The notes under the pieces were generated by a model. That model saw only the letters and a program-made list of their open reading frames with translations. It had not been told where the DNA came from and did not search any database. Source: an uncultured Thalassospiraceae bacterium (GTDB lineage: Bacteria; Pseudomonadota; Alphaproteobacteria; Rhodospirillales; 2-02-FULL-58-16). Taken from it: a DNA stretch of 64,000 bases. A program made the translations under genes and the position numbers. This document shows, piece by piece, positions 3,351 through 37,316 of this stretch (the first letter of the stretch is position 1; each line of letters begins with the position of its first letter). The DNA lies in the NCBI GenBank assembly GCA_964632795.1, contig CAZWEZ010000005.1:314-64313 (forward strand). The letters are read 5' to 3'.

Positions 3351-5183
3351 ATGGGATGGCAAGGTAGGGTTCTGCGCGTCAACCTGAGCGAGGGCACCTG
3401 CGAGGGCGAGGACCTGAACCGCGAATGGGCCGAACAGTACCTGGGCCAGCGCGGCCTGGGCAGCCGCTACTTCACCGCCGAGGTCGAGCCCAAGGTCGAT
3501 CCCCTGTCGCCGGACAACAAGCTGGTCTACGCCACCGGCCCGCTGACCGGCACCATGGCGCCGACCGGAGCCCGTTTCTCGGTGGTCACCAAGGGGGCGC
3601 TGACCAACATCATCGCCGCCTCCAACTCGGGCGGCCACTTCGGGGCCGAGCTCAAGGCTGCCGGCTGGGACGTGCTGATCGTCGAGGGCAAGGCCAAGAG
3701 CCCGCTCTACCTGTACGTCCGCGACGACCACGCCGAGCTGTTGGCGGCCGACGACCTGTGGGGACGCTCGGTGTGGGAATGCGAACCGGCGCTCAAGGCC
3801 CGCCACATGGACCCCCTGATCAAGGTCTCCTCGATCGGCCGGGCCGGCGAGATCGGGGTCAGGTTCGCCGGCATCGTCAACGACCTCGACCGGGCCGCCG
3901 GGCGCTCCGGGGTCGGCGCCGTGATGGGGTCGAAGAACCTCAAGGCGATCGCCGTGCGCGGCACCACCGGGATCGCGGTCAACGACCCCGAGGCCTTCCG
4001 GGCGGCGGTCGACAACGCCCGGCGAATCCTCGACCCGAGTGCGCCCAGGGCCCGCTACGAGAACATCGGCACCCACGGCATGATGGACGTCACCCAGAAC
4101 TTCGGCGCCCTGCCGGCGTACAACTGCCACGACGTCCAGTTCGACGGCACGCCCAGGATCAACGCCGCGGCGATGCAGAAGAGGCGCCTCACCGACGGCC
4201 GCTCAACCTTGCAGACCAACAAGGCCTGCTTCGGCTGCACCATCGGCTGCGGCCGGGTCTCCAAGCTCGACCCGACCCACTTCTCGGTGGCCGGCAAGCA
4301 GGGCCGCGAGGTCTATCTCGAATCCCAGGGCGGGCTGGAATACGAATCCGCCTTCTCACTGGGCGCCATGACCGGCATCGACGACCGCGAGGCGATGACC
4401 TACGCCAACTACATCTGCAACCAACAGGGGATGGACCCGATCTCCTTCGGAGTCACCGTGGCGGCGGCGATGGAACTCTACGAGGTCGGGGCGATCACCG
4501 ACGCCGACACCGGCGGGATCGCGCTCGACTTCGGCTCCGCCGAGGGCCTGGTGGCGATGGCCGAACTGACCGCCCTCGGCGAGGGCCTGGGCAAGGACAT
4601 CGGGATGGGCTCCAAGGGGCTGTGCGAGAAGTACGGCCACCCCGAGTTCGCGATGCAGGTCAAGGGCCAGGAGATCGCCGGCTACGACCCCCGCGCCATG
4701 CAGGGGATGGGGCTGGCCTATGCGACCAGCAACCGCGGCGCCTGCCACATCCGCTCGCGGCCCTTCGTCGACGACTTCTCGCGCGTCGAGACCGAGGGCA
4801 AGGCGAAGATCGTCAAGGACACCCAGGACGAGGTGGCGGCGATCGATTCGACGGGCCTGTGCGTCTTCGCCTACAACGCCTGGAGCATGGACGACATCGC
4901 GGCCATGGTCGAGGGCGCCTGCGGCGGCGGCTGGACCGCCGAACGGATGTGCCTGACCGGCGAGCGGGTGTGGAACCTGGAGCGCAAGTTCAACCTCGAG
5001 GCCGGCCTGACGGCGGCCGACGACACCCTGCCCCGGCGCCTGCTCGAGGAGGCCGCCAAGCGGGGCACCGCCAGGGGCCATGTCTGCGGGCTGGATGCGA
5101 TGCTGCCCGAATACTACCGGCTGCGCGGTTGGGACGCCGGCGGCGTGCCCACCGCCGAGACGGTCAAACGTCTGAGGATTTGA
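3351..5183 (+). CDS. Aldehyde:ferredoxin oxidoreductase (tungstopterin AOR family)
   Basis: The translation MGWQGRVLRVNLSEGT...VYATGPLTGTMAPTGARFSVVTKGALTN...KACFGCTIGCGR...ATSNRGACHIRS is typical of the AOR family. ATG 3351 lies ~10 nt after GAGGAG (3335-3340); ATG 3342 is an alternative. The upstream 567 codons of ORF 1650..5183 are an Arg/Pro-rich artefact antisense or out of frame to pheT. Confidence 0.85.
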   Translation: MGWQGRVLRVNLSEGTCEGEDLNREWAEQYLGQRGLGSRYFTAEVEPKVDPLSPDNKLVYATGPLTGTMAPTGARFSVVTKGALTNIIAASNSGGHFGAELKAAGWDVLIVEGKAKSPLYLYVRDDHAELLAADDLWGRSVWECEPALKARHMDPLIKVSSIGRAGEIGVRFAGIVNDLDRAAGRSGVGAVMGSKNLKAIAVRGTTGIAVNDPEAFRAAVDNARRILDPSAPRARYENIGTHGMMDVTQNFGALPAYNCHDVQFDGTPRINAAAMQKRRLTDGRSTLQTNKACFGCTIGCGRVSKLDPTHFSVAGKQGREVYLESQGGLEYESAFSLGAMTGIDDREAMTYANYICNQQGMDPISFGVTVAAAMELYEVGAITDADTGGIALDFGSAEGLVAMAELTALGEGLGKDIGMGSKGLCEKYGHPEFAMQVKGQEIAGYDPRAMQGMGLAYATSNRGACHIRSRPFVDDFSRVETEGKAKIVKDTQDEVAAIDSTGLCVFAYNAWSMDDIAAMVEGACGGGWTAERMCLTGERVWNLERKFNLEAGLTAADDTLPRRLLEEAAKRGTARGHVCGLDAMLPEYYRLRGWDAGGVPTAETVKRLRI

Positions 5184-6033
5184 GCCCCTTCAACACTTCC
5201 AACGTCCGCACGCGGTCCTTGACCTGGTGCCAGTGGCGTTCGCTGACGCCGGCGATCAGGGCCTCGACCAGGGTCAGGATCACGGCCGCCGAATCCCACC
5301 TCGAGGGAACGTCGATCCGCACCGGGAAGGTGTGCTTGGCGAGGCGCGAGATGGGCGACAGCCATTGGTCGGTGAACAGGACGACCGTGGCGCCGCGCCC
5401 GGCGGCCTGTTCGGCGAACCGAACCACCTCGCCCTGATAGCGGCGAATGTCGAAGACCGCGAGGACGTCGCGGCGGCCCATGTCCAGGATGTCTTCGCGC
5501 CAGGTGGCGCTGTGCCCCTCGACCAGATGGACGTTGGGCCGCAGCACGCGAAGATGGGCGTAGAGATAGGCGGCGATGGCGCCGGTGAAACGGCCGCCGA
5601 GGACATGGACCGTCCGCTTGCGGTCGGCCAATAGCCGGATCGCGGCTTCGAACTCCGAGCCCGGCAGCGACTTCAGCGATTCCTCGATATTGTCGCGCAC
5701 CGCGGCGGCGAAACGTCCCAGGAAGTCCTTGTTCCCCTTTCCCGCCGCCTCCTTGCCGTACGTCTTGGCGAGCGGGGATTGGAGCCGCACCTCCAGTTCC
5801 TCCCTCAGGGCACGCTGGAAATCGGCGTAGCCGGAGAACCCCAGCTTGCCGACCAGACGCAGGATCGTCGGCCCGCTGACCCCGGACTGGCTGGCGAATT
5901 TGGCCACCGTATCCAGCCCCGCCAGCGGGTAGTTGACGAGAAGGGCCTGGGCCGGCTTGCGCTCGGTGGGCGTCAGGCGGTCGAAGATCCGGCGGATCTC
6001 CTCGGCGATCGTCCTCGGGGGCTGACTGGTCAT
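5164..6033 (-). CDS. RpiR/MurR-family transcriptional regulator (HTH + SIS domain)
   Basis: There is an N-terminal HTH (TVAKFASQSGVSGPTILRLVGKLGFSGYADF) and a C-terminal SIS-like region (VHVLGGRFTGAIAAYLY). The 3' end overlaps the convergent AOR gene by 20 nt. Confidence 0.85.
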   Translation of the reverse strand: MTSQPPRTIAEEIRRIFDRLTPTERKPAQALLVNYPLAGLDTVAKFASQSGVSGPTILRLVGKLGFSGYADFQRALREELEVRLQSPLAKTYGKEAAGKGNKDFLGRFAAAVRDNIEESLKSLPGSEFEAAIRLLADRKRTVHVLGGRFTGAIAAYLYAHLRVLRPNVHLVEGHSATWREDILDMGRRDVLAVFDIRRYQGEVVRFAEQAAGRGATVVLFTDQWLSPISRLAKHTFPVRIDVPSRWDSAAVILTLVEALIAGVSERHWHQVKDRVRTLEVLKGLKSSDV

Positions 6034-12168: not shown

Positions 12169-12276
12169 ATGAACGGCGAAGGAAACGAAGACTCGAAATA
12201 TCCATGGGCGGGACCGGTTCTGTTCGGCGTCGTCCTGGTCGCCGTGATCGCCTTCTTCTGGTGGTTCCTCGGCTGA
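12169..12276 (+). CDS. Mini membrane protein, 35 aa (MNGEGNEDSKYPWAGPVLFGVVLVAVIAFFWWFLG)
   Basis: An ORF found by hand, below the track cut-off. It has a single TM helix and is first in a chain of closely spaced co-directional genes. Confidence 0.45.
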   Translation: MNGEGNEDSKYPWAGPVLFGVVLVAVIAFFWWFLG

Positions 12277-12296: not shown

Positions 12297-12413
12297 ATGA
12301 AAGGGTACGCGGTGCCGTTCGCCATCGCCTTCGTGGTCTGCGGGGCGGCCTTCTTCGTCATGGACTACGCGGTGATGAACGTCCAGGGGCTGTCCCTGTT
12401 CTTTGAAAACTGA
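12297..12413 (+). CDS. Mini membrane protein, 38 aa (MKGYAVPFAIAFVVCGAAFFVMDYAVMNVQGLSLFFEN)
   Basis: GAGGGAGGAG (12281-12290) lies 6 nt upstream of ATG 12297. The product has a single TM helix and ends 28 nt before the CydA-like gene. Confidence 0.55.
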   Translation: MKGYAVPFAIAFVVCGAAFFVMDYAVMNVQGLSLFFEN

Positions 12414-12441
12414 CGCCATCTCGAGAGGAAGGCAAACTGAG

Positions 12442-14250
12442 ATGAGGGATCGTCTGGCGAAAACCGGCTGGCTGGCGTTGGCGTTGGTCCTGGCCGTGCT
12501 GGTGTTGGGCGGCGGCATCGAAGCCGTCGCCGCCGAGTCGGCCGCCGAGACGGTGGCCGAAGCCGAAGCGCCGCCCCTCTACGCCCCCGCGCCCCGGTTG
12601 AGCGTGGCCGACTACCCGACCATCGCCGGCGTCAATTCGCGGGTCGTGGTGTGGCTGGTCGCCCAGTTGCACCTGTGGTTCGCAGCCTTCGTGCTGGCGG
12701 TGCCGATCTTCGTCTTCATCATCGAGGCGATCGGCATGAAGACCCGGGACAAGCGCTTCGACGACATGGCCTACGAGTTCATCAAGGTCTCGATCACCGC
12801 CTATTCGCTGACCGCGATCTCGGGCGGTCTGCTGGTCTTCTCGCTGCTGATCTTCTATCCCCACCTGTTCCTCTACCTGTCGACGATCTTCAAGGAGACG
12901 ATGTTCTACTACGCGATCCTGTTCTTCGCCGAGAGCGCCTTCCTCTACATCTACTACTACGGTTGGCACTGGCTGCAGGGGGGATTCCGCAAGTGGGTGC
13001 ACCTGACCCTGGGGCTGCTGCTCAACGCCGTCGGCACGTTGCTGATGTTCCTGGCCAACGCCTGGCTGACCTTCATGATGAGCCCGGCCGGGGTCGATGC
13101 GGCCGGGGTCTTCGGCGGCGACACCATGGTTTCGATCCACAACTACCTGTGGAACCCCTTCAACCTTCACCGGTTCATCGCCAACATCGCCTACGGCGGC
13201 TCCATCGTCGGCGCCTACGCCGCCTTCAGGTTCCTGAGCGCGACGGCGCGCGACCAGAAGGCCCACTACGACTGGATGGGCTACAACGCCAACTTCATCG
13301 CCATCTCGGCGCTGTTGCCGCTGCCGTTCGCCGGTTATTACCTGTCGGCCGAGTTCTACGCCTACAGCCAGCAGATGGGGATCACCCTGATGGGCGGCAT
13401 CTTCGCCTGGATGTTCATCATCCAGGCGGTGCTGATCGGCGCCCTGTTCCTGTCGGCCAACTATTACCTGTGGTGCGGGATGGGGCGCAGCGACGGGGCG
13501 GTCCGCTACAACAAGTACATCAAGTACATCGCGGTGGTGATCGTGGCCTCGTTCCTGGTCTGGTTCACCCCCCACACCCTGGTCCTGACGAATGAGGAAC
13601 TGAAGGCGCTGGGCGGGCCGTATCACAAGTACATCGGCCCGCTGGGCATCATGCCGGCCAAGAACACGGCGGTGAACCTGATGATCCTGTTCACCTTCGT
13701 CAGCTTCGTGATCTACCGGCGCTGCAACAAGGTCGCCACGGTGTCGTGGGTCAAGGCCGGCAACGCCTTCCTTGTGGCGCTGTTCGCCACCGGCATCATC
13801 AACCTGTTCATCCTCGGCATCTACCACGGCTACTTCACCAACACCGTCTACAAGGTCGCGTCCTCCTGGCCACAGGTCGTCACCACCCTGATCATCATCG
13901 TCGTCACCGTCGTCGTCGACAACCTGATGTACAAGGGGGCCAGGGAGGTCGCTCCCCTCCAGTGGGGCCGGGTTCCCGCGCGCTCGCAGTACGCCCTGTT
14001 CCTGCTGGCGGTGGCCTTCACCTGGCTGATGGGGCTGATGGGGTATGTCCGCTCGGGCATCCGCCAGCACTGGCACGTGGTCGACATCATGCGCGACAAC
14101 TCGACCGAAGCCTTCACCCCGACCATAAGGTACGCGACCAACGTGGTTTCGGTGGGCACGGTCATCTTCATGGCCCTGGTCATCTTCGTGTTCTGGCTGA
14201 GCCAGGTCGGCGGCCGCAAGACGGTTCCCGCCGGCTACTGGAAGGAATAG
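12442..14250 (+). CDS. Cytochrome bd subunit I-like (CydA-like) polytopic membrane protein, orphan (no CydB partner)
   Basis: ATG 12442 follows GAGAGGAAGG. Helix-1 has a His motif (VAQLHLWFAAFVLAVPIF). An FFAESAFLYIYYYGW segment resembles the CydA FFLE..F..FGW segment. ANAWLTFMMSPAG resembles NSWMQ.P.G, and NPFNLHRFIANIAYGG is also present. The product is ~602 aa. The next ORF is a cytochrome c, not cydB. Confidence 0.75.
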   Translation: MRDRLAKTGWLALALVLAVLVLGGGIEAVAAESAAETVAEAEAPPLYAPAPRLSVADYPTIAGVNSRVVVWLVAQLHLWFAAFVLAVPIFVFIIEAIGMKTRDKRFDDMAYEFIKVSITAYSLTAISGGLLVFSLLIFYPHLFLYLSTIFKETMFYYAILFFAESAFLYIYYYGWHWLQGGFRKWVHLTLGLLLNAVGTLLMFLANAWLTFMMSPAGVDAAGVFGGDTMVSIHNYLWNPFNLHRFIANIAYGGSIVGAYAAFRFLSATARDQKAHYDWMGYNANFIAISALLPLPFAGYYLSAEFYAYSQQMGITLMGGIFAWMFIIQAVLIGALFLSANYYLWCGMGRSDGAVRYNKYIKYIAVVIVASFLVWFTPHTLVLTNEELKALGGPYHKYIGPLGIMPAKNTAVNLMILFTFVSFVIYRRCNKVATVSWVKAGNAFLVALFATGIINLFILGIYHGYFTNTVYKVASSWPQVVTTLIIIVVTVVVDNLMYKGAREVAPLQWGRVPARSQYALFLLAVAFTWLMGLMGYVRSGIRQHWHVVDIMRDNSTEAFTPTIRYATNVVSVGTVIFMALVIFVFWLSQVGGRKTVPAGYWKE

Positions 14251-14256
14251 GGGGCG

Positions 14257-15084
14257 ATGGGAAACTTCCTCAGGGTGGTCGTCTTCAGCCTCATCACCAT
14301 CGTCTTGTTCGCCGGCTATTCCGGGTGGGGGATCCCGCAGATCAAACCGGCGCCCCCGCCCAAGGAGGAAAAGCTGGACCTCGGCGCCATGACCATGGAC
14401 CGCTTCATCGCCCTGGGGGAGAAGATCTACAAGGGCAAGGGGACCTGCACGCTGTGCCACAACGAGCTGGGCCGGGCGCCGATGCTGGACAATGCCGCCG
14501 CGACCGCCGCCGAGCGGCTGGCCGATCCCGGATACCAGGGCACGGCCGAAACCGTCGAGGAATTCCTTTACGAGTCCATGGTCGATCCCACGGCCTACGT
14601 GGTCGCCGGCTTCGGCAAGAAGGGCACCAACGACACGGTCAGCCCGATGACAGACGTGTCGGCCGGCAGCACCCGGCTGTCGGAGGCCGAAATCAGCGCC
14701 CTCATCGCCTACCTCCAGGACCTGGCCGGGGCCGAGGTGACGGTGGAGATTCCGACCGGCGTCGCCGAAGACGACGGCGAGGAAGACGGCGAGGAGGGCG
14801 AGGCCAGGGCGCCCCTCGAGAGCGCCGAGGAGGTGATCGAGGAATTCGCCTGCGGCATTTGCCACGTCATCGCTGGCGAGGAAGGGGAGTTGGGTCCCGA
14901 CCTGTCGAAGATCGGCGCCGACAGGGACCGCGACTTCCTGCGCCGCTCCATCCTCGACCCCAACGCCGAGCTCACCGAGGGCTTCGAGGAGGATATGATG
15001 CCCCCCGACTACGGCGAACAGATGTACGCCAAGGAACTGGAAATGCTGCTGGATTACATGGCCGGGTTGAAAGAGGGGGAATGA
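14257..15084 (+). CDS. Membrane-anchored dihaem cytochrome c with acidic linker
   Basis: There is an N-terminal TM anchor, two CXXCH motifs (CTLCH, CGICH) and an EDDGEEDGEEGE linker. The stop overlaps the next start (ATGA at 15081-15084). Confidence 0.85.
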   Translation: MGNFLRVVVFSLITIVLFAGYSGWGIPQIKPAPPPKEEKLDLGAMTMDRFIALGEKIYKGKGTCTLCHNELGRAPMLDNAAATAAERLADPGYQGTAETVEEFLYESMVDPTAYVVAGFGKKGTNDTVSPMTDVSAGSTRLSEAEISALIAYLQDLAGAEVTVEIPTGVAEDDGEEDGEEGEARAPLESAEEVIEEFACGICHVIAGEEGELGPDLSKIGADRDRDFLRRSILDPNAELTEGFEEDMMPPDYGEQMYAKELEMLLDYMAGLKEGE

Positions 15085-15875
15085 GGACGATGTGGATTCT
15101 CAGCTTGTTCCGGGCCAGGTTGCTCCAGGCGATCCTGGTCCTGGTCGGGATTTACGTCGCCTTCATCGTCGTCTTCGATTATCTGCTCGGCGAGGTGATC
15201 CCCTCCAGCCTGCTGAACATGTACATGTTCTTCGCGGCGGCCGGGGTGTTCATGGTCTTCACCTTCACCGAGGAGGGGGCCCGCGAGATGGTGGCGCCGA
15301 TCAAGGCGCTGGTCGAGGATTCGTCCCGGAAGGTGATCCGCAACGTGGTTTTCGCGATCGTCCCCCTGGTGGCCGGGGCTTACGCCTACATGCAGATGCT
15401 GCCCGGCCTGGAGGCGCCGCTCGAGCTGCGCTCCATCCATCCGGCGCCGCCGACGACGGCCAAGATGTTCGGCAAGCGTTTCGACCTGCAGACCCTGGAG
15501 AACCCGTACCGCAAGTTCGAGAAGGAGGACCCGGAGAAGTTCCGCCAGCTGGTCGCCGCGGGGGCCGAGGTGTACATCGAGAACTGCCACTTCTGCCATG
15601 GCGACAAGCTCGACGGCAAGGGTCCCTACGCGGCGGGTCTGAACCCGATCCCTCTCAGTTTCCAGGACATCGGGACCATCGCCCAGTTGCAGGAATCCTA
15701 CCTCTTCTGGCGGATCACCACCGGCGGCCCCGGCCTGCCCGAGGAGGCGGCGCCGTGGATTTCGTCGATGCCGATCTGGGAGGACTTCCTGAGCGAGGAT
15801 GAGATCTGGAAGGTGATCCTGTTCCTCTACGACTACACCGGCCACCGGCCGCGGGCCTGGGGGGAGCACGAGTGA
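15081..15875 (+). CDS. Three-TM membrane protein with C-terminal monohaem cytochrome c domain
   Basis: The start is MRTMWILSLFRARLLQAILVLVGIYVAF. There is one CXXCH (CHFCH) followed by LFWRITTGGPG...MPIW. The upstream part of ORF 13746..15875 is an artefact. Confidence 0.8.
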   Translation: MRTMWILSLFRARLLQAILVLVGIYVAFIVVFDYLLGEVIPSSLLNMYMFFAAAGVFMVFTFTEEGAREMVAPIKALVEDSSRKVIRNVVFAIVPLVAGAYAYMQMLPGLEAPLELRSIHPAPPTTAKMFGKRFDLQTLENPYRKFEKEDPEKFRQLVAAGAEVYIENCHFCHGDKLDGKGPYAAGLNPIPLSFQDIGTIAQLQESYLFWRITTGGPGLPEEAAPWISSMPIWEDFLSEDEIWKVILFLYDYTGHRPRAWGEHE

Positions 15876-17398
15876 TGGTTGCCAGACGCTTTGCGTGGAT
15901 GATCACGGCGGCCCTGCTGGCGGGGGCGCCGGCTCATGGGGCGCCGGGCGACGCCGAGCGGGGAGAGGAGATCTACGTCAAGCGGTGCATGAACTGCCAC
16001 GGCGAGGAGGGCGACGGCCTGGGCCCGGGCGCCGAGCGGCTCAACCCGCCGCCCCGGGACTTCACGCTGGGCCTGTACAAGATCAAGACCACCGGCTTCG
16101 ACGATCCGGTGCCCAACGACGCCGACATCTACCGGATGATCGAGGTCGGCATGCCGGGGACCTCGATGCCCGGCTGGGGCGACGTGCTGTCCGAACAGGA
16201 GATATTGGACCTGGTCGCCTACCTCAAGGTATTCGCCGAACTGGAGGAGGAGGAACCCACCGAGCAGCTCGACTACGGCACCGCCGTAGCCTCTTCGGCC
16301 GACAGCATCGAGATCGGCCGCAAGCTGTTCCTGGACGGCGATCGGTGCTCCGAATGCCACGGCGTGGACGGCCGGGGAGACGCCATCAAGAAGCTCAAGG
16401 ACGACAACGGTGAGAGGACCTGGCCGCGCAACCTGACCAAGCCCTGGACCTTCATCGCCGGCAACGATCCCAAGGAGATCTTCGCCCGCATCTCGGTCGG
16501 CATCCCGGGCACCCAGATGCCGTCCTTCGCCGACCCCAAGAGCAAGAAGAAGCTGAGCGTCGAGGAGCGCTGGCACATCGCCAACTTCACCGCCTCGCTG
16601 GCCGACCCCGCCAAGACGGTACGGGCCGAGAAGACGGTGATCAAGGCGGCCAAGATCGACGGCGAGCTGCCCTCCGGACCCGAGGACCCCGCGTGGGCGG
16701 CGATCGAGGCGGTGAACTTCTTCATGGTCCCCCAGATGTTCCTCGAGGAACGGTTCTTCACCCCGTCCAACGACACCGTCTCGGCGCGCGCCCTCTACAA
16801 CGACCGGGCCATCGCCTTCCTGCTCGAATGGGACGACCGCACCCGGAGCACGCCCGGCGACGCGGCGGCGGAGAAGATCGCCGACCCCGGGATCGCCGAG
16901 GACGGGATCGCCATCCAACTGCCGGTGAGCATTCCCGAGGACATGGAGAAGCCCTATTTCGTGATGGGCGACGCCGCCGACCCGGTCAATTTCTGGCACT
17001 GGCGCGGGGGCACCGCCGAGGAGCCCGAGAGCGTCGCCCTGTACAACGCCAGAGGTCTCGCCGAGGTCGAGGAACGGGACGCCGCGGCGGCCGGCATCGC
17101 CGCCAAGGGAGCCTACAAGGCCGGCACCTGGCGGGTGATGATGACCAGGGAGCTGACCACCTCCGATGCCGAGAACGACCTCCAGTTCGAGGAGGGCCGG
17201 TTCATCCCCATCGCCTTTTCCGCCTGGGACGGCTCCAACAGCGAACGGGGCTCCAGGCGCACCGTGTCCACCTGGTACTGGCTGCTTCTCGAACCGTCGG
17301 TCGGCTCCAAGCCGATCGTCGCCGCGCTGATCGTCATCGTCCTGCTGCTCGGCGCCGAGCTGTGGTGGGCCCGCAGCGCGACGCGCAAAGGGACCTGA
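15875..17398 (+). CDS. Dihaem cytochrome c fused to an EB_dh (ethylbenzene-dehydrogenase gamma / DOMON-like haem-binding) domain, with C-terminal TM anchor
   Basis: A signal peptide is present. The haem motifs are CMNCH and CSECH. The C-terminal half (FFMVPQMFLEERFFTP...LLEWDD...IAIQLP...NFWHWRGG...GTWRVMMTREL...FSAWDGSNSERGSRRTVSTWYWL) matches my recollection of the EB_dh family. The start is GTG 15872 or ATG 15875, overlapping the upstream stop. Confidence 0.8.
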   Translation: MVARRFAWMITAALLAGAPAHGAPGDAERGEEIYVKRCMNCHGEEGDGLGPGAERLNPPPRDFTLGLYKIKTTGFDDPVPNDADIYRMIEVGMPGTSMPGWGDVLSEQEILDLVAYLKVFAELEEEEPTEQLDYGTAVASSADSIEIGRKLFLDGDRCSECHGVDGRGDAIKKLKDDNGERTWPRNLTKPWTFIAGNDPKEIFARISVGIPGTQMPSFADPKSKKKLSVEERWHIANFTASLADPAKTVRAEKTVIKAAKIDGELPSGPEDPAWAAIEAVNFFMVPQMFLEERFFTPSNDTVSARALYNDRAIAFLLEWDDRTRSTPGDAAAEKIADPGIAEDGIAIQLPVSIPEDMEKPYFVMGDAADPVNFWHWRGGTAEEPESVALYNARGLAEVEERDAAAAGIAAKGAYKAGTWRVMMTRELTTSDAENDLQFEEGRFIPIAFSAWDGSNSERGSRRTVSTWYWLLLEPSVGSKPIVAALIVIVLLLGAELWWARSATRKGT

Positions 17399-17446
17399 GC
17401 AGGAGACCGGACGATGGCCGAAGACCAACCCAGGAAAGGGGTCAAG

Positions 17447-17617
17447 ATGCGCATCTTCGGGGTCATCCTGATCTTCGTCGGGGTGCTCGACGGGATGCTG
17501 GCGTGGCGCGGCGGCTTCCAGCTCAGCGGCTTCTACGTGGTGCTGTTCGCCTCCGGGGTCCTGCTGTTCGCGCTGGGCGCCGTCAGGGGCCGGCGGCGGC
17601 CGGAGGAGTCCCGGTGA
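17447..17617 (+). CDS. Small two-TM membrane protein (56 aa from ATG 17447; 67 aa if ATG 17414)
   Basis: The product begins MRIFGVILIFVGVLDGMLAWRGG...VVLFASGVLLFALGAV. The stop overlaps the GTG start of the next gene (GTGA at 17614-17617). Confidence 0.5.
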   Translation: MRIFGVILIFVGVLDGMLAWRGGFQLSGFYVVLFASGVLLFALGAVRGRRRPEESR

Positions 17618-19266
17618 GCGAGGTCCCCCGGACCGAGGAGACCCCGGAGCGGTGGACGGCGCCCTGCCGGCGCATCCTGGTGGCACTCGACAATTCCGAC
17701 CACGCCGGGCGGGCGCTCGCCGAATCGATCCGCCTGGCCGGCTTCGCCGGGGGCACCGTGACCGGCATCCACGCCTACGCCGCCCGCCTCCACGACCGCC
17801 GTTTCCGGCAGATGGAGGGCGGGCTGCCGGCGCGCTACCTGGCCGAGGCCGAGATGTCGCACCAGCGCGAGGTCCACGACGACCTGATCACCCGCGGCCT
17901 CGACATCATCAGCGACAGCTACCACGACGTCGCCGAGAAGTCCTGCCGGCAGGCCGACGTCCCCTACCGCCGCCTCAGCCCGGAGGGCAAGAACTACCGG
18001 CGCATCGTCGAGGCCGTCGGGAGCGGCGACTTCGACCTTCTGGTCCTCGGCGCGCTGGGGGTCGGCGCGGTGCCCGGGGGCACCGTCGGCACCGTCTGCG
18101 AGCGGGTGGTCCGGCGCAGCCCGATCGACGTCCTGGTCGTCCGCGACCCCGCCCGGGCCCTCGACGCGGGGCCGATCGTGGTCGGCCTGGACGGCTCGCC
18201 GCGTTCCTTCGGCGCCCTGCTTGGCGCCCTCGACCTGGGGCGCCGGCTGGGCGCCGTGGTCCACGCCGTGGCCGCCTACGACCCCTACTACCACTACGTC
18301 GCCTTCAGGCGCATCTCCGGGGTGCTGAGCGAGGAGGCGGGCAAGGTGTTCCGCTTCAAGGAGCAGGAGCAGCTCCACGAGGAGCTGATCGACGAGGGCA
18401 TCGCCCGCATCTACCGCTCCCACCTCGAAGTGGCCGCCAGGATCGCCGGCGAGGACGGCGTCGAGCTGGTCACCGAGCTGCTGGACGGCAAGCCCTACCG
18501 GACCATCCTCGGCTACCTGGAGAAGGTCGGCGCCGGCCTGCTGATGGTGGGGCGGACCGGCATCCACGCCGATTCCGCCCTCGACATCGGCGGCAACGCC
18601 GAGAACCTGCTGCGCCTGGCGCCGTGCCACGTGTGGTTCGTCGCGGCGTCCTACGAGCCGCCCCTGGAGATGGTCGCCGCCGAAACCGTCGCCTGGAGCC
18701 CCGAGGCCGAGGAGTTGCTGTCCAGGGCCCCCGAGTTCGCCCGCGACATGGCCCGTCAGGCGGTGCTGCGCCACGCCCACGAACAGGGCCACACCTTCAT
18801 CACCACCGACATCGTCGGGGAGGTGGCCAACCGGCTGATGCCGGGGCGCGGCGAGGCCGCCTGCCCCCACGGCGCGGCGGAGCCGGCATGGAGCGCCGAG
18901 GCAAGCGCCCTGATCGAGGGCCTCGACAATCCCGCCCTGGCCGCCAACGTCCGCCTGCGGGCCGAGAAGCTGGCCCGCCGCGAAGGCGCGGAAACGGTCC
19001 TGGCGTCCCACCTCCGGCCCTTCATCGACGATCCCGGAGAAGGCGACTTAGCGCCGTGGTCGGCGGCGGCGCTGGCCTGCCTGGCCCGGGTCCCCGAGGC
19101 CGTGCGCGAGCGCGTCCGGGCCCGTGTCGAGACGGTGGCCCGCAACCGGGGGGCCGGCGAGGTGACGCCCGAGATCGTCGAGGCCGGGTTCGCCGAGGCG
19201 CGCCAGGCGATGCACCGGGCGATGCTGGACGGCGGCCACAAGCGGACCGTCGACGACGGGGAATAG
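17614..19266 (+). CDS. Tandem universal-stress-protein (USP) domains fused to three PCP_red-like (ChlB/BchB C-terminal type) repeats
   Basis: GGAGGAG (17602-17608) precedes GTG 17614. There are two USP-like halves (ILVALDNSDH...LLVLGALG; IVVGLDGSPRS...LLMVGRTG). Three repeats follow of the pattern W(S/T)xEAxxxLxxxPxxxRxxxR...G...(V/I)Txxxx, at roughly 18694-18816, 18889-19014 and 19057-19188. Confidence 0.75.
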   Translation: MSEVPRTEETPERWTAPCRRILVALDNSDHAGRALAESIRLAGFAGGTVTGIHAYAARLHDRRFRQMEGGLPARYLAEAEMSHQREVHDDLITRGLDIISDSYHDVAEKSCRQADVPYRRLSPEGKNYRRIVEAVGSGDFDLLVLGALGVGAVPGGTVGTVCERVVRRSPIDVLVVRDPARALDAGPIVVGLDGSPRSFGALLGALDLGRRLGAVVHAVAAYDPYYHYVAFRRISGVLSEEAGKVFRFKEQEQLHEELIDEGIARIYRSHLEVAARIAGEDGVELVTELLDGKPYRTILGYLEKVGAGLLMVGRTGIHADSALDIGGNAENLLRLAPCHVWFVAASYEPPLEMVAAETVAWSPEAEELLSRAPEFARDMARQAVLRHAHEQGHTFITTDIVGEVANRLMPGRGEAACPHGAAEPAWSAEASALIEGLDNPALAANVRLRAEKLARREGAETVLASHLRPFIDDPGEGDLAPWSAAALACLARVPEAVRERVRARVETVARNRGAGEVTPEIVEAGFAEARQAMHRAMLDGGHKRTVDDGE

Positions 19267-19269
19267 GCC

Positions 19270-20526
19270 ATGGCCTCCACCGTCCAGCCGCCGTACCTGG
19301 TCGCCCTCAACCTGACCCGACGCTGCAACCTCCGTTGCGCCCACTGCTACCTGGACGCCGGCACCCGGGCCGGGGGCGGAGCCGGCGCCGGAGAAGAACT
19401 ATCCACCGCCGAGGTCGAAACCCTGCTCGAGGGGATCGCCGCGCTGAACGGCGAGGCGATGGTGGTGCTGACCGGCGGCGAGCCGCTGCTGCGCCCCGAC
19501 CTCGAGGCGATCGCCCGCCACGGCTCCGGCCTCGGGCTGATGATGGTGCTCGGCACCAACGGCACCCTGCTCGACGCGCGGCGGGTCGCCGGCCTGATCG
19601 CCGCCGGGGTGCGGGGCGCCGGGATCAGCCTGGATTCCCTGGATGCGGACTATCACGACGGTTTCCGGGGCGTGGCCGGCTGCTGGGAGAAGACCATGGC
19701 GGCCATCGACGCCTGCCGGCGGGGCGGGCTCGGCTTCCAGATCCACTTCTCGGTGAGCGACGACAACGCCGACCAGTTGGACGACATGATCGCCTTCGCC
19801 CGCTCGGCCGGGGCGCTGGTGCTCAACGTCTTCTTCCTGGTCTGCACCGGGCGCGGCGAGCAGCTGTCCAACGTCTCCGCGGCGACTTTCGAAGACGTCC
19901 TGGGCCGCATCGCCCGGGCCGCCCACGCCGAGAGCGGATTGCTGATCAGGGCCAAGTGCGCCCCCCACTTCAAACGCCTGGCCATGGAGCTCGACCCGTC
20001 GTGGCCGATCACCCTGGCCCACGGCTACGAGGCCGGCGGCTGCCTGGCCGGCAGCCGCTACTGCCGGGTGACCCCGGAAGGCGAGGTCACGGCCTGTCCC
20101 TACATGGAGCCGTCCGCCGGTTCGATCCGCGAGCGCCCGTTGGCCGACATCTGGCGCGAGGCGCCGCAGTTCGCCCAACTCCGGGCGCCGGTTCTGGAGG
20201 GCCGCTGCGGGGAGTGCGAGTACCGCCGGATCTGCGGCGGCTGCCGGGCCCGTCCCCTGGCCAGGAGCGGCGACCTGATGGGCGAGGACTTCCTGTGCGG
20301 CTACCAGCCCCGGGGCGGGGCGGTGATCGAGCCCCTGAGGCCGGCGGCGGGGACCGTCTCGTGGACCCAGGAGGCCGAACAGCGGCTGCTCCGGGCGCCC
20401 GCCTTCCTGCGCCGGATGGTCCGCGGGCGGGCCGAGGAGTACGTCCGCGGCCGCGGCCGCAGCCGGGTCACCGCCGACGACATGCGAATCCTCGGCCAGC
20501 GGCGTTTCGGGGAGGACCGGCGATGA
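19270..20526 (+). CDS. Radical SAM/SPASM enzyme (AhbD/NirJ-like) with C-terminal PCP_red-like domain
   Basis: The CxxxCxxC motif is RRCNLRCAHCY (19324-19347). SPASM-type Cys clusters are present (CLAGSRYCRVTPEGEVTACPY; CGECEYRRICGGCRARP). The C-terminal WTQEAEQRLLRAPAFLRRMVRGRAEEYVRGRGRSRVTADDM lies at ~20362-20484. Confidence 0.85.
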   Translation: MASTVQPPYLVALNLTRRCNLRCAHCYLDAGTRAGGGAGAGEELSTAEVETLLEGIAALNGEAMVVLTGGEPLLRPDLEAIARHGSGLGLMMVLGTNGTLLDARRVAGLIAAGVRGAGISLDSLDADYHDGFRGVAGCWEKTMAAIDACRRGGLGFQIHFSVSDDNADQLDDMIAFARSAGALVLNVFFLVCTGRGEQLSNVSAATFEDVLGRIARAAHAESGLLIRAKCAPHFKRLAMELDPSWPITLAHGYEAGGCLAGSRYCRVTPEGEVTACPYMEPSAGSIRERPLADIWREAPQFAQLRAPVLEGRCGECEYRRICGGCRARPLARSGDLMGEDFLCGYQPRGGAVIEPLRPAAGTVSWTQEAEQRLLRAPAFLRRMVRGRAEEYVRGRGRSRVTADDMRILGQRRFGEDRR

Positions 20527-21935
20527 GGTTCGACGTGGCGATCGTCGGGGGCGGGATTTCGGGGCTGGCGACGGCCTACGAACTGGTCCGCCGGGGCCGC
20601 CGGGTGGTGGTCCTGGAGCGCCAGGTGCGGCCCGGCGGGACCGCCGTCTCCGAGCGCCTCGGCGGTTTCCTGATGGAGCACGGGCCGAGCACCCTCAACG
20701 GCGCTTCGGAGGCGGCGCTGGGCCTGTCCCGGGCGCTCGGCCTGGAGGGCGCGCGGTGCGAACTCGGCGACCGGGTGCGACGGCGCTACCTGGTCGACGG
20801 CGGAGGCCTGCACGGCATCTCGACCCATCCCCTGGGGTTCCTGGTCTCCGGCTACCTGTCGCCGGGGGCGCGGCTGCGGCTGCTGGCCGAGGCCGTGGTG
20901 CCGCGCCGCGCCGAAGACGGCGACGAGGAGACGATCGAGGACTTCTGCCGGCGCCGCTTCGGGGCCGAGTTCGCCGAGCGGGTGATCGACCCCCTGGTCG
21001 CCGGCATCTACGCCGCCCGGGCCGGCGAGGCGTCGGTGTCGGCGCTGTTCCCGACCCTGGTCGAGATGGAACGCCGCCACGGTTCGGTGTGCCGGGGGCT
21101 GGCCCGCCGCCGCCGGGGCGGGCGGATGCCGGGCAGCCGGCTGTTCTCGTTCGCCGGCGGCCTGGGCAGCCTGCCCCGGGCCCTGGCCGGGGCCCTCGGC
21201 GGGGTGGTGCGGAGCGGCATCGCGGTGCGCCGGGTGCGCCCGGCGGCCGGCGGTTATTCCATCGAGGCGGAGGCGGCAGGAAGCATCGAGGCGCGCTCGG
21301 TGGTGCTGGCCACCCAGCCCCACGTCACGGCGCGGCTGCTCGACGGCCTCGACGAGGCGGGCGCCGAGGCGGCCTCGGCCATCGCCGCGCCGCCGCTGGC
21401 GGTGGTCTTCCTCGGCTACCCCCGGCGCCGGGTCGCCCATCCCCTGGACGGCCTCGGCTTCCTCGGCGCCGAGGCCGAGGGGCGGGCGCTCAACGGCGCC
21501 CAGTTCTGCTCGACCATGTTCCCGGGCCGGGCGCCCGAGGGCCACGTGGCGGTGGCCGGCTACATCGGCGGGGCGCGGGCTCCGGAGCTGGCCCGGCTCG
21601 GCGAGGACGAGTTGATCTCCATCGCCCGCGAGGAGTTCGCCGACCTCATCGGGGCGCGGGGCGAACCGGTGGTGGCCCGGGTCCGCCACTGGCCGGTGGG
21701 GTTGCCCCAGTACCGGCTCGGCCACGCCTTACGCGCCGCCGCGCTGAGCGGCCTGGCCGAGCGCCGGCCCGGCCTCTATGCGACCGGCAACTATCTGCGC
21801 GGCCCCTCGGTGGCGGCCTGCCTGGCCCTGGCCCTGGAGACCGCCGCCGAAGCCGACGCCCACCTCGCCGCGAGCGCCGCCGAGGCGCCGCCCATCCGCC
21901 GTCACCGGCTTGCCCGGCCTGCCGCGGGAAGGTAG
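20523..21935 (+). CDS. FAD-dependent protoporphyrinogen/coproporphyrinogen oxidase (HemY/CgoX-type)
   Basis: ATG 20523 overlaps the upstream stop (ATGA). The dinucleotide-binding motif is MRFDVAIVGGGISGLATAYEL...LERQVRPGG. The family-typical tail is HWPVGLPQYRLGH...LYATGNYLRGPSV. The upstream 957 codons of ORF 17652..21935 are an artefact. Confidence 0.8.
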   Translation: MRFDVAIVGGGISGLATAYELVRRGRRVVVLERQVRPGGTAVSERLGGFLMEHGPSTLNGASEAALGLSRALGLEGARCELGDRVRRRYLVDGGGLHGISTHPLGFLVSGYLSPGARLRLLAEAVVPRRAEDGDEETIEDFCRRRFGAEFAERVIDPLVAGIYAARAGEASVSALFPTLVEMERRHGSVCRGLARRRRGGRMPGSRLFSFAGGLGSLPRALAGALGGVVRSGIAVRRVRPAAGGYSIEAEAAGSIEARSVVLATQPHVTARLLDGLDEAGAEAASAIAAPPLAVVFLGYPRRRVAHPLDGLGFLGAEAEGRALNGAQFCSTMFPGRAPEGHVAVAGYIGGARAPELARLGEDELISIAREEFADLIGARGEPVVARVRHWPVGLPQYRLGHALRAAALSGLAERRPGLYATGNYLRGPSVAACLALALETAAEADAHLAASAAEAPPIRRHRLARPAAGR

Positions 21936-32866: not shown

Positions 32867-32970
32867 CCCTTCGCATTCTCCTCTCGACGCATACATGTTC
32901 GACCCCGGCGTGTCCGTGGACCGGGATATCCCGGTCCATGGGCACGCTGGTCACACCATCTATGAAGTTA

Positions 32971-33427: not shown

Positions 33428-37024
<3,597 letters not shown>

Positions 37025-37316
37025 TGCCGGAGTTCCTTTTCTGCTTGCCGGGAAAGACTTCCGCCGGCCCCGCGAAACGGGCCGGCGAGGTTTTCGCATG
37101 ATATCATATCGCGGCGCGGAATTGAGCGCGAAAATAAGAGAAGGACGCCCGTGCGGCAAGCCCAAAAGGAACGACTCCATGGCTGAACAATTGAAACGCG
37201 TCTCATAAGTCAAAGAAAACTCAAGTCACCAGCTGAACGAACTTCAGGCAATGAAATCAGTGCTAACCACACTGGTCTAACACGTGGCCATCGCTATGGC
37301 ATGGCAGGATCAGGCA

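What the first reader, a model, noticed from the sequence alone, without database searches (positions are those of the whole stretch)
15875..17398. Dihaem cytochrome c fused to an EB_dh (DOMON-like, haem b-type) domain and a C-terminal membrane anchor
The N-terminal half has two CXXCH motifs (CMNCH, CSECH). The C-terminal half reads FFMVPQMFLEERFFTP..AFLLEWDD..IAIQLP..NFWHWRGG..TWRVMMTREL..AFSAWDGSNSERGSRRTVSTWYWLLLEP. It resembles the haem-binding gamma subunit of ethylbenzene dehydrogenase and NxrC-type proteins, which normally partner molybdoenzymes. No molybdopterin subunit is encoded here; the partner is a bd-like membrane protein. That would make this a three-haem periplasmic wire of unusual composition.
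Basis: partly seen in the sequence, partly recalled or inferred. Interest (0 to 1): 0.55.

Follow-up and report, generated by a model that had tools for sequence, protein, structure and literature searches.

The report
Cytochrome subunit of a bd-like oxidase
This gene encodes a membrane-anchored periplasmic electron-transfer protein (two c-type haems plus an ethylbenzene-dehydrogenase-gamma-like domain) that belongs to a widespread, already catalogued but never purified "cytochrome bd-like" respiratory complex, so it is a new member of a known kind, not a new invention.

Summary
ORF 15875-17398 (+) has a signal peptide, two cytochrome c domains (CMNCH, CSECH), a Pfam EB_dh domain (E 7.9e-27) and a C-terminal transmembrane helix. 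The AlphaFold model (pLDDT 84.7) superposes on Kuenenia dihaem cytochrome Kustc0457 (TM 0.89) and on EbdC (TM 0.83).

The gene lies in a tightly coupled operon with a 14-helix CydA-like protein, two more cytochromes c and three small membrane peptides. No molybdoenzyme is nearby. This is the "OR-N2" bd-like operon type described by Murali, Gennis and Hemp (2021), seen earlier in Nitrospira, Nitrospina and Kuenenia NXR clusters. The core gene order is identical in 60 of 60 related genomes that could be checked. The fusion family has 566 clusters at 50% identity.

The "three-haem" claim is unproven for this protein. The Met ligand is present (M365). The Lys ligand of EbdC/NxrC is Arg here (R463) and His in 113 of 120 close homologues.

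The most likely role is electron entry into a cytochrome c-dependent bd-type oxidase; that function is inferred.

One thing may be new: a conserved downstream trio of Usp-PCP_red, an AhbD/NirJ-like radical SAM enzyme with a PCP_red domain, and a HemY-like oxidase. It suggests dedicated haem tailoring.

The parts
12169..12276 (+). Small membrane ORF, 35 aa (MNGEGNEDSKYPWAGPVLF...FFWWFLG); probable small subunit of the complex
   Evidence: tblastn E<1e-3 in 62 related loci; in the listed hits it lies just upstream of the cydA-like gene. Sequence read.
12297..12413 (+). Small membrane ORF, 38 aa (MKGYAVPF...MNVQGLSLFFEN); probable CydX-like small subunit
   Evidence: tblastn E<1e-3 in 65 related loci directly upstream of the cydA-like gene. 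Called as a 38-aa gene in L001, L083 and L084.
12403..14250 (+). CydA-like membrane subunit of OR-N2 type. First in-frame start is TTG at 12403; the public gene call of 602 aa implies a start at about 12442. 14 hydrophobic segments.
   Evidence: Pfam Cyt_bd_oxida_I 5.4e-13. Aligns to CydA of 9r2g and 5doq over the first helices. Signature residues H90, Y170, E177, Y184, Y186, H200, H256, M417/N421, S551, W557 match the OR-N2 row of Murali Table S6 by constant offset. 14 hydrophobic peaks.
14257..15084 (+). Dihaem cytochrome c subunit, 275 aa, N-terminal hydrophobic segment (CTLCH, CGICH)
   Evidence: Syntenic in all related loci.
15081..15875 (+). Monohaem cytochrome c subunit, 264 aa, three N-terminal hydrophobic segments (CHFCH). 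Its start overlaps the upstream gene by 4 nt; its stop shares 1 nt with the target's ATG.
15875..17398 (+). THE FINDING: signal peptide + two cytochrome c domains + EB_dh domain + C-terminal TM anchor
15986..16000 (+). Haem c site 1, CMNCH (aa 39-43); distal Met99
   Evidence: C39/C42/H43 and M99 are invariant in 120 close homologues and in 137-145 of 150 distant representatives.
16346..16360 (+). Haem c site 2, CSECH (aa 159-163); distal Met216
   Evidence: Invariant in 120 of 120 close homologues and 147-149 of 150 distant representatives.
16685..17257 (+). EB_dh (EbdC/NxrC-like, DOMON-superfamily) domain, aa 272-462. M365 (nt 16964-16966) equals EbdC Met108. R463 (nt 17258-17260, CGC) occupies the place of EbdC Lys201 / NxrC Lys305.
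   Evidence: Pfam 7.9e-27. PDB alignments. Foldseek 2ivf_C TM 0.83. Codons. Column statistics.
17309..17380 (+). C-terminal transmembrane anchor, aa 480-503
   Evidence: Hydropathy. Helix 480-504 in the model. W499 invariant.
17414..17617 (+). Small two-helix membrane protein, 67 aa
   Evidence: Two hydrophobic segments. tblastn hits at the same position in nearly all related loci.
17614..19266 (+). Usp + PCP_red repeat protein, 550 aa (accessory; inferred tetrapyrrole handling)
   Evidence: Pfam Usp 2.9e-31, PCP_red 1.1e-25. Present in 44 of 54 loci with at least 5 kb of downstream sequence.
19270..20526 (+). Radical SAM-SPASM-PCP_red protein related to AhbD/NirJ2 (accessory)
   Evidence: TIGR04055 1.5e-86 and TIGR04545 1.7e-85, both below cut-off. 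Pfam. Present in 42 of 54 loci, directly downstream in 35. Also present in L086 and L087.
20523..21935 (+). HemY-like FAD-dependent (copro/proto)porphyrinogen oxidase (accessory)
   Evidence: TIGR00562, 241.5 bits against a cut-off of 97.85. Amino_oxidase 2.2e-54.

Best explanation
The ORF encodes the periplasmic, tail-anchored electron-entry subunit of an OR-N2-type cytochrome bd-like membrane complex. It is exported by a Sec signal peptide, receives two covalently bound c-type haems (His/Met ligated), and stays in the membrane through its C-terminal helix. It sits next to a 14-helix CydA-like subunit that keeps the haem ligands of cytochrome bd. That protein family is reported to lack the quinol-binding loop. 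Together with a dihaem and a monohaem cytochrome c subunit and three small membrane peptides, it passes electrons from periplasmic donors (soluble cytochromes c fed by lithotrophic or organotrophic oxidation) to the haems of the CydA-like subunit. The most likely reaction there is oxygen reduction at low oxygen. The EB_dh domain is either a further redox station (haem b, Met/His in most orthologues) or, in this Arg463 variant, perhaps a haem-poor docking or cap domain. Shown: architecture, fold, operon, family distribution, ligand inventory. Inferred: complex formation, direction of electron flow, oxygen as acceptor, haem b occupancy.
For: Domains and motifs. Model pLDDT 84.7. Foldseek: 6h5l_B TM 0.89 / rmsd 1.9 A; 2ivf_C TM 0.83; 7b04_C TM 0.62; weaker matches to other DOMON-superfamily folds (CBM9, CDH cytochrome domain, dopamine beta-hydroxylase). 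Gene junctions of -4 to +15 nt from 14250 to 20526 point to one translationally coupled operon. Gene order cydA-like / dihaem c / monohaem c / EB_dh fusion was identical in 60 of 60 species-level genomes with enough upstream sequence. It was also present in a cultured isolate, Sulfurivermis fontis AP018724.1, and in a distant Met/Lys-type locus L087, where the monohaem c appears fused into the 751-aa EB_dh protein. The CydA-like protein carries the OR-N2 signature (H19-, E107-, H126-, H186- and M393-equivalents; Y in place of E99) and 14 hydrophobic segments. [quoted passage not shown] The same module sits in NXR clusters. It is called a putative cytochrome c-oxidising O2 reductase in 2024-2025 genomics papers and 'TO_1 ... 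periplasmic cytochrome b' in Manganitrophus. Hosts include OMZ Rhodospirillales, Gallionella, Ferrigenium, Zetaproteobacteria, Acidiferrobacteraceae, Thiothrix and Woeseia.
Against: No member of the OR-N family has been purified, so oxygen reduction is an assumption, and the literature says so. Arg463 replaces the Lys/His ligand, so the third haem is doubtful in this protein. Across 150 distant representatives the two EbdC ligand positions are very variable (Met/Lys 18, His/His 11, Met/Arg 9, Met/His 8, Leu/Arg 8, Phe/Arg 7 ...), so haem b may not be a family-wide feature. Physical association of the subunits is inferred from synteny only. Absence of the quinol loop was not tested residue by residue here.
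Confidence: 0.7

Rival explanations
1. A three-haem wire exactly as proposed by the first reader: two c haems plus an EbdC-type high-potential haem b with Met/Lys ligation.
For: EB_dh profile hit and EbdC-like fold. Met365 aligns with EbdC Met108 and with the NxrC Met. Distant family members do have Met/Lys (18 of 150).
Against: The Lys position is Arg463 in this protein. Close homologues have His, not Lys (113 of 120). The E458-to-W468 spacing is fixed at 9 residues in 135 of 150 representatives, so the column is well aligned. A weaker form, haem b held by Met365 alone or with another ligand, remains possible (my estimate about 0.4).
Confidence: 0.1
2. It is the gamma (haem b) subunit of a type II DMSO-reductase-family molybdoenzyme (NXR, EBDH or Ser-like) whose alpha and beta subunits are encoded elsewhere. 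Several automatic annotations name it this way.
For: JGI names many homologues 'DMSO reductase family type II enzyme heme b subunit'. TIGR03477 match E 1.4e-34. In nitrite oxidisers the same module lies in NXR clusters.
Against: TIGR03477 score is 119.3, below its cut-off of 169.85. The EbdC equivalog scores 55 against a cut-off of 400. No molybdopterin protein among the large ORFs of the window or in the +/-10 kb Pfam-annotated flanks of six related loci. Invariant synteny is with the bd-like protein. The N-terminus is a leader whose Arg-Arg pair is not conserved in homologues, and the protein is tail-anchored. The genome outside the window was not seen.
Confidence: 0.05
3. The complex is not an oxidase. 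It is a cytochrome c:quinone (or quinol:cytochrome c) oxidoreductase, working like an alternative complex III, for example for reverse electron flow in lithotrophs.
For: This was proposed for the bd-like protein of Nitrospina/Nitrospira. Many hosts are iron or sulfur lithotrophs that need uphill electron transport.
Against: The residues of the bd oxygen-reducing site (H19, E107 and H126 equivalents) are kept. The quinol-binding loop is reported to be absent from the family. Many hosts are heterotroph-like marine Rhodospirillales. None of this is decisive.
Confidence: 0.15
4. The EB_dh domain here is haem-free. It would be a DOMON/CBM9-like structural domain that docks or caps the CydA-like subunit, so the protein is simply a dihaem cytochrome c with a scaffold.
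For: Arg463 in this protein. His-to-Arg arose at least three times independently among close orthologues. Among distant representatives Arg is the commonest residue at 463 (39 of 150), often paired with non-ligands at 365 (Leu, Phe, Gly). Foldseek also hits sugar-binding CBM9 modules.
Against: Met365 is kept in 110 of 120 close homologues and His463 in 113 of 120. That argues for a functional Met/His haem site in the orthologous group, as in the cellobiose dehydrogenase cytochrome domain (my knowledge; fold hit 4qi3_A). The W-D-G-S-N-x-E motif shared with EbdC is conserved.
Confidence: 0.3

Closest known systems
OR-N2 cytochrome bd-like operon (Murali, Gennis & Hemp 2021). Equivalent to the NIDE0901-type bd-like cluster of Nitrospira/Nitrospina/Kuenenia; probably also 'TO_1' of Ca. 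Manganitrophus.
   Same: A 14-helix CydA homologue with the OR-N2 residue pattern, several cytochromes c, and an EbdC homologue in one operon.
   Different: Here the host is a proteobacterial MAG with no NXR nearby. The EbdC-like domain is fused to a dihaem cytochrome c and a tail anchor. The operon also carries three small peptides and a haem-biosynthesis-like trio that I did not find in the papers read or in one keyword search.
EbdC, gamma subunit of ethylbenzene dehydrogenase (PDB 2ivf_C)
   Same: Fold (TM 0.83, rmsd 3.0 A), Pfam family, and the Met ligand position.
   Different: 22-23% identity. Lys201 is replaced by Arg463. No alpha/beta molybdoenzyme partner. Extra dihaem c module and TM anchor. 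Below the equivalog cut-off.
NxrC of Kuenenia nitrite oxidoreductase (PDB 7b04_C; haem b Met155/Lys305, PMC8387239)
   Same: EB_dh fold (TM 0.62). The Met aligns. The same kind of module (alternative NxrC + mono- and dihaem c + bd-like) is encoded in NXR clusters.
   Different: Lys305 equivalent is Arg. No NxrAB here.
Kustc0457, dihaem cytochrome c partner of the HAO-like Kustc0458 (PDB 6h5l_B)
   Same: The N-terminal 220 residues: E 9.6e-43, 38% identity, TM 0.89, rmsd 1.9 A, both CXXCH sites.
   Different: Kustc0457 is a 226-residue chain without the EB_dh domain or a tail anchor, and serves an octahaem enzyme. Here the module is fused to EB_dh and a membrane anchor.
Cytochrome domain of cellobiose dehydrogenase (DOMON-type haem b, Met/His; PDB 4qi3_A)
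   Same: DOMON-superfamily beta-sandwich. The Met/His pair predicted for most close orthologues matches the CDH ligand set (fold hit E 7.2e-4; ligand set from my own knowledge).
   Different: Only remote structural similarity (9% identity). Eukaryotic flavocytochrome context.
Canonical cytochrome bd quinol oxidase CydAB(X)
   Same: The N-terminal four-helix haem-binding core of CydA aligns. Small single-helix peptides encoded next to it recall CydX (comparison from my knowledge).
   Different: No CydB. The family is reported to lack the quinol loop. Extra helices. Electron input through cytochromes c.

Membership tests
Pfam EB_dh (PF09459) | Profile score above the gathering threshold | tested here: met
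   95.2 bits against 33.3, E 7.9e-27, profile positions 1-234 of 236.
Type II DMSO reductase gamma subunit (TIGR03477) / EbdC equivalog (NF042980) | Score above the curated cut-off | tested here: not met
   119.3 against 169.85; 55.4 against 400.
EbdC/NxrC-type haem b subunit | Proximal Met ligand (EbdC M108 / NxrC M155) | tested here: met
   M365 aligns in both pairwise alignments. Met in 110 of 120 close homologues.
EbdC/NxrC-type haem b subunit | Distal Lys ligand (EbdC K201 / NxrC K305) | tested here: not met
   R463, codon CGC. His in 113 of 120 close homologues. Lys in only 27 of 150 distant representatives.
EbdC/NxrC-type haem b subunit | Encoded with, and bound to, molybdopterin alpha and Fe-S beta subunits | tested here: not met
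   No such gene in the window's large ORFs or in six annotated related loci. The rest of the genome was not available.
Class I c-type cytochrome (two domains) | CXXCH plus a distal Met in each domain, and an export signal | tested here: met
   C39/C42/H43 + M99 and C159/C162/H163 + M216 are invariant. Hydrophobic leader at aa 7-23.
OR-N2 cytochrome bd-like complex (partner protein 12403-14250) | CydA homologue with about 14 TM helices | tested here: met
   14 hydropathy peaks. Crude method.
OR-N2 cytochrome bd-like complex | Signature residues of Table S6: H19 kept, E99 changed to Y, E107 kept, Y/Y at 114/116, H126, H186, M/N at 393, S at 445, W441 | tested here: met
   H90, Y170, E177, Y184, Y186, H200, H256, M417/N421, S551, W557. 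The offset to the reference numbering is constant at 9-13 residues. H90, Y170 and E177 were also placed by alignment to 5doq_A. The reference sequence itself was not aligned.
OR-N2 cytochrome bd-like complex | Operon with multiple cytochromes c and an EbdC homologue, and no CydB | tested here: met
OR-N2 cytochrome bd-like complex | Absence of the quinol-binding Q-loop | tested here: inconclusive
   PDB alignments cover only the N-terminal part. The literature states that the loop is replaced by extra helices. Not checked residue by residue here.
Terminal oxidase (any) | Catalyses O2 reduction | not testable with these tools
   No member of the OR-N family has been characterised.

The most novel reading that the evidence does not exclude
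The conserved trio after the structural genes may be a private haem-tailoring or haem-delivery system for bd-like (OR-N2) complexes. The trio is Usp-PCP_red, an AhbD/NirJ2-like radical SAM-SPASM enzyme fused to a PCP_red (protochlorophyllide-reductase lid) domain, and a HemY-like porphyrinogen oxidase. If so, the active-site haem would be either a non-standard haem or haem b made by a dedicated coproporphyrin-type branch. The linkage holds in 42 of 54 related genomes, in a cultured isolate (Sulfurivermis fontis), and for the radical SAM gene next to a distant Met/Lys-type module. A keyword search of the held library found no paper on it.
Probability: 0.3. Interest if true: 0.7.

Novelty: new member of a known kind. 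Interest (0 to 1): 0.33.

Why it matters
Bd-like (OR-N) complexes are the presumed main terminal oxidases of Nitrospira, Nitrospina and Manganitrophus, yet none has been purified. This window shows that the same module, complete with its EbdC-like subunit, is common in marine and groundwater Proteobacteria without any nitrite oxidoreductase. The module is therefore a self-contained respiratory unit and not an NXR accessory. It also occurs in a cultured isolate, Sulfurivermis fontis, which may be easier to work with than the nitrite oxidisers. The ligand survey (Met/His, Met/Lys, His/His, x/Arg) warns against annotating these proteins as 'haem b subunits' by homology alone. The linked haem-biosynthesis-like genes give a concrete lead on which cofactor the oxidase uses.

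Tried and rejected
1. The first AlphaFold run with 18 sequences was weak (pLDDT 69.6, low confidence around residues 457-465). I replaced it with a 120-sequence run.
2. The molybdoenzyme-partner idea: Pfam on the large ORFs of the window and annotated flanks of six loci found none.
3. Tat export: the query has Arg-Arg in its leader, but homologues do not, so I rejected it.
4. Sequencing error as the source of Arg463: the same protein appears in an NCBI/ENA contig and in a Logan assembly, and the His-to-Arg change recurs in at least three unrelated orthologues. I treat it as real.
5. The third homologue search, with the CydA-like protein, returned only 75-83% identical proteobacterial relatives. 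It did not link directly to a Nitrospira reference. OR-N2 assignment therefore rests on signature residues and operon content.
6. Literature searches for 'PCP_red' + 'radical SAM' and for 'bd-like' + 'Gallionella' found nothing relevant.
7. The promoter/terminator scan gave no promoter-like sites and terminator-like sites at the level expected by chance.
Full report
**1. The observation**

The ORF on the + strand ends at 17398. It starts at ATG 15875, which is the public gene call P0001 (507 aa, 100% identical). An in-frame GTG at 15872 gives 508 aa, and residue numbers here use that start. The ATG shares its A with the TGA stop of the upstream gene. Codon-position GC is 0.63/0.48/0.93, typical of coding sequence in this genome.

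Pfam gives EB_dh (PF09459) at E 7.9e-27, 95 bits against a gathering score of 33, covering aa 272-462 and nearly the whole profile. It also gives two cytochrome c stretches. A hydrophobic helix at aa 480-503 closes the protein.

**2. Structure**

A first AlphaFold model from 18 sequences was mediocre (pLDDT 69.6). A second from 120 homologues reached pLDDT 84.7 and pTM 0.78. Foldseek against the PDB gives:
- the dihaem cytochrome c Kustc0457 of Kuenenia (6h5l_B, TM 0.89, rmsd 1.9 A, 38% identity) for the N-terminal half;
- EbdC (2ivf_C, TM 0.83, rmsd 3.0 A) and NxrC (7b04_C, TM 0.62) for the C-terminal half;
- weaker hits to CBM9 modules, the cellobiose dehydrogenase cytochrome domain and dopamine beta-hydroxylase, all DOMON-superfamily folds.

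Sequence searches of the PDB agree: 6h5l_B 9.6e-43, 2ivf_C 3.9e-14, 7b04_C 3.6e-8.

**3. Haem inventory**

The two c-haem sites are secure. C39/C42/H43 with Met99, and C159/C162/H163 with Met216, are invariant in 120 close homologues. They are present in 137-149 of 150 representatives of 50%-identity clusters.

The b-haem site is not secure. EbdC binds haem b through Met108 and Lys201 (my knowledge; residue numbers follow the 2ivf_C alignment). NxrC uses Met155 and Lys305 'as in EBDH' (PMC8387239).
- In both pairwise alignments the Met aligns with M365.
- In both, the Lys aligns with R463, encoded by CGC.
- Among 120 close homologues (61-67% identical over the aligned columns), position 365 is Met in 110. 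Position 463 is His in 113, Arg in 4, Gln in 2 and Tyr in 1.
- The orthologous group is therefore predicted to be Met/His, and this protein is a Met/Arg variant.
- The four Arg proteins are not a clade. Their nearest neighbours carry His, so the change arose at least three times.
- In the 150 distant representatives the column is well aligned: exactly nine residues separate E458 and W468 in 135 of them. The ligand pair is nevertheless very variable: Met/Lys 18, His/His 11, Met/Arg 9, Met/His 8, Leu/Arg 8, Phe/Arg 7, Gly/Arg 5, Leu/Met 5 and so on.
- Haem b in the EbdC manner is therefore not a family-wide constant, and for this protein it is an open question.

**4. Neighbourhood**

The gene sits in a run of + strand genes with junctions of -4 to +15 nt:
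- two small membrane ORFs (12169-12276, 35 aa; 12297-12413, 38 aa);
- a CydA-like protein (12403/12442-14250);
- a dihaem cytochrome c (14257-15084);
- a monohaem cytochrome c with three hydrophobic segments (15081-15875);
- the target;
- a 67-aa two-helix protein (17414-17617);
- a Usp-PCP_red protein (17614-19266);
- a radical SAM-SPASM-PCP_red protein (19270-20526);
- a HemY-like oxidase (20523-21935).

Supporting calls are 6, 7, 27, 29, 30, 70 and 71. None of the large ORFs tested in the window is a molybdopterin enzyme. They are PheT, two 2-oxoacid:ferredoxin oxidoreductases, amidases, DctM, an SLT transglycosylase, a TPR-cyclase and an HD-CE protein; one 670-aa ORF (3425-5437) gave no Pfam hit.

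**5. The membrane partner**

The CydA-like protein matches Pfam Cyt_bd_oxida_I only weakly (5.4e-13). It aligns to solved CydA chains over the N-terminal helices. It has 14 hydrophobic segments.

Its residues H90, Y170, E177, Y184, Y186, H200, H256, M417/N421, S551 and W557 reproduce the OR-N2 row of Supplementary Table 6 of Murali, Gennis and Hemp 2021. That row reads H99, Y183, E190, Y197, Y199, H213, H269, M430/N434, S563, W569, so the offset is constant at 9-13 residues. OR-N1 has Gly in place of the E107 equivalent, so N2 fits better.

**6. Comparison with relatives**

The fusion protein has more than 1,476 database homologues, and the best 120 all share the three-domain architecture. An exhaustive search of 1.84 billion cluster representatives gave 566 clusters at E<=1e-30, most of them covering the full length.

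In one genome per species (GTDB), 203 stretches encode relatives. The best 80 are all MAGs of marine oxygen-minimum-zone Rhodospirillales and other Alpha- and Gammaproteobacteria. They also include iron and sulfur lithotrophs: Gallionella, Ca. Ferrigenium, Zetaproteobacteria/Mariprofundaceae, Acidiferrobacteraceae, Thiothrix, Sulfuricella, Woeseia.

In all 60 loci with enough upstream sequence, the order cydA-like / dihaem c / monohaem c / fusion is identical. The two upstream peptides are found in 62 and 65 loci. Some genomes carry two such modules in tandem.

A distant Met/Lys-type branch of the same fusion occurs in Methylomirabilota/Rokubacteria and in a hydrothermal-vent metagenome bin labelled Nitrospinae. 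The cultured Sulfurivermis fontis also carries the fusion, again next to a CydA-like gene. A locus of that distant branch shows the same pairing. No molybdoenzyme appears in any annotated flank.

**7. What is known**

The supplement of Murali et al. [quoted passage not shown] It adds that the electron donor is unclear but may be cytochrome c.

Lucker et al. 2013 had already noted that the NXR clusters of Nitrospina, Nitrospira and Kuenenia encode an alternative NxrC, one mono- and one dihaem cytochrome c, and a 14-helix bd-like protein in which extra helices replace the Q-loop. They proposed either an oxidase or an ACIII-like role.

Papers from 2022-2025 still call these complexes putative, uncharacterised terminal oxidases. 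The PDB holds no such complex.

The finding is therefore a new proteobacterial member of a catalogued but biochemically unknown kind. It is not a novel architecture.

**8. Mechanism**

Most likely (0.7 for the overall picture), the protein is the tail-anchored periplasmic electron-entry subunit of this complex. Electrons would pass from soluble donors through up to five c haems on three subunits, possibly through a haem b in the EB_dh domain, and on to the haems of the CydA-like subunit. Oxygen is the probable acceptor there.

Architecture, fold, synteny and ligand inventory are shown. Complex formation, direction of flow, the acceptor and haem b occupancy are inferred.

The rivals are listed separately:
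- a true Met/Lys three-haem wire;
- a gamma subunit of a distant molybdoenzyme;
- an ACIII-like cytochrome c:quinone oxidoreductase;
- a haem-free scaffold domain.

**9. A lead beyond the finding**

The three genes downstream all point to tetrapyrroles.
- The radical SAM protein is closest to NirJ2/AhbD (1.5e-86 and 1.7e-85, both below cut-off) and carries a PCP_red domain.
- The Usp protein carries two PCP_red stretches.
- The last gene passes the protoporphyrinogen oxidase model (241 bits against 98).

Of the 54 related loci with at least 5 kb downstream, 42 have the radical SAM gene within the stored flank, 35 of them directly downstream. Forty-four have the Usp-PCP_red gene.

The pair also follows the module in Sulfurivermis fontis, there after an SCO1/AhpC protein. 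The radical SAM-PCP_red gene lies near the distant module in L087.

A keyword search of the held library found no paper on this linkage. It suggests dedicated haem supply or tailoring for the bd-like oxidase. I give this 0.3.

**10. Verdict**

Novelty: new member of a known kind. Interest is modest at 0.33. It rises above routine because the family is uncharacterised, because the ligand survey changes how these proteins should be annotated, and because of the accessory-gene lead.

Noticed in passing
window 12169-12276 (+) and 12297-12413 (+): Two unannotated-looking small membrane ORFs (35 and 38 aa) directly upstream of the cydA-like gene. They are conserved in 62 and 65 related loci, in the listed hits at the same position. 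They are probably CydX-like small subunits, and the operon starts here, upstream of 12403.
   Followed up: partly
window 17614-21935 (+): A Usp-PCP_red protein, an AhbD/NirJ2-like radical SAM-SPASM-PCP_red protein and a HemY-like porphyrinogen oxidase follow the structural genes with overlapping junctions. The radical SAM gene is present near the module in 42 of 54 related genomes. The Usp and radical SAM pair follows the module in Sulfurivermis fontis, and the radical SAM gene lies near a distant module. A keyword search of the held library found no paper on this.
   Followed up: partly
L001 5733-6443; L086 11488-12411; protein P0181: SCO1/SenC (copper chaperone-like, sometimes with AhpC-TSA) recurs beside the module, and in P0181 it is fused to the EB_dh cytochrome. 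This hints at a copper or thiol-redox requirement of the complex. There is no such gene in this window's operon.
   Followed up: no
L001 1-5545, L083 1-5223, L084 10-3174: Several genomes carry a second, paralogous module immediately upstream: a larger CydA-like protein of about 724-739 aa, two cytochromes c, a 537-548 aa EB_dh fusion, plus FixO-like and small cytochromes c. This window has only one module.
   Followed up: partly
window 37317-40421 (-): A 1033-aa protein with an N-terminal HD-CE domain (E 1.9e-50) lies in a patch of low GC (about 50-57% against about 65% elsewhere; GC3 0.49). It may be horizontally acquired.
   Followed up: no
window 33428-37213 (-) and 31133-32896 (-): A 1260-aa pyruvate:ferredoxin oxidoreductase and a second 2-oxoacid:ferredoxin oxidoreductase subunit. 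These are oxygen-sensitive enzymes (my knowledge) in the same genome as the putative high-affinity oxidase, which fits a microaerobic lifestyle.
   Followed up: no
window 12403-14250 and homologues P0391, P0397, P0405 etc.: Public annotations call the CydA-like protein 'cytochrome ubiquinol oxidase subunit I' and the target 'DMSO reductase family type II enzyme heme b subunit'. Both names are probably misleading for this family.
   Followed up: partly
window 17258-17260 (codon CGC, R463): The residue at the EbdC Lys ligand position is one transition away from the His (CAC) found in 113 of 120 close homologues. The His-to-Arg change recurs independently at least three times in the family.
   Followed up: yes
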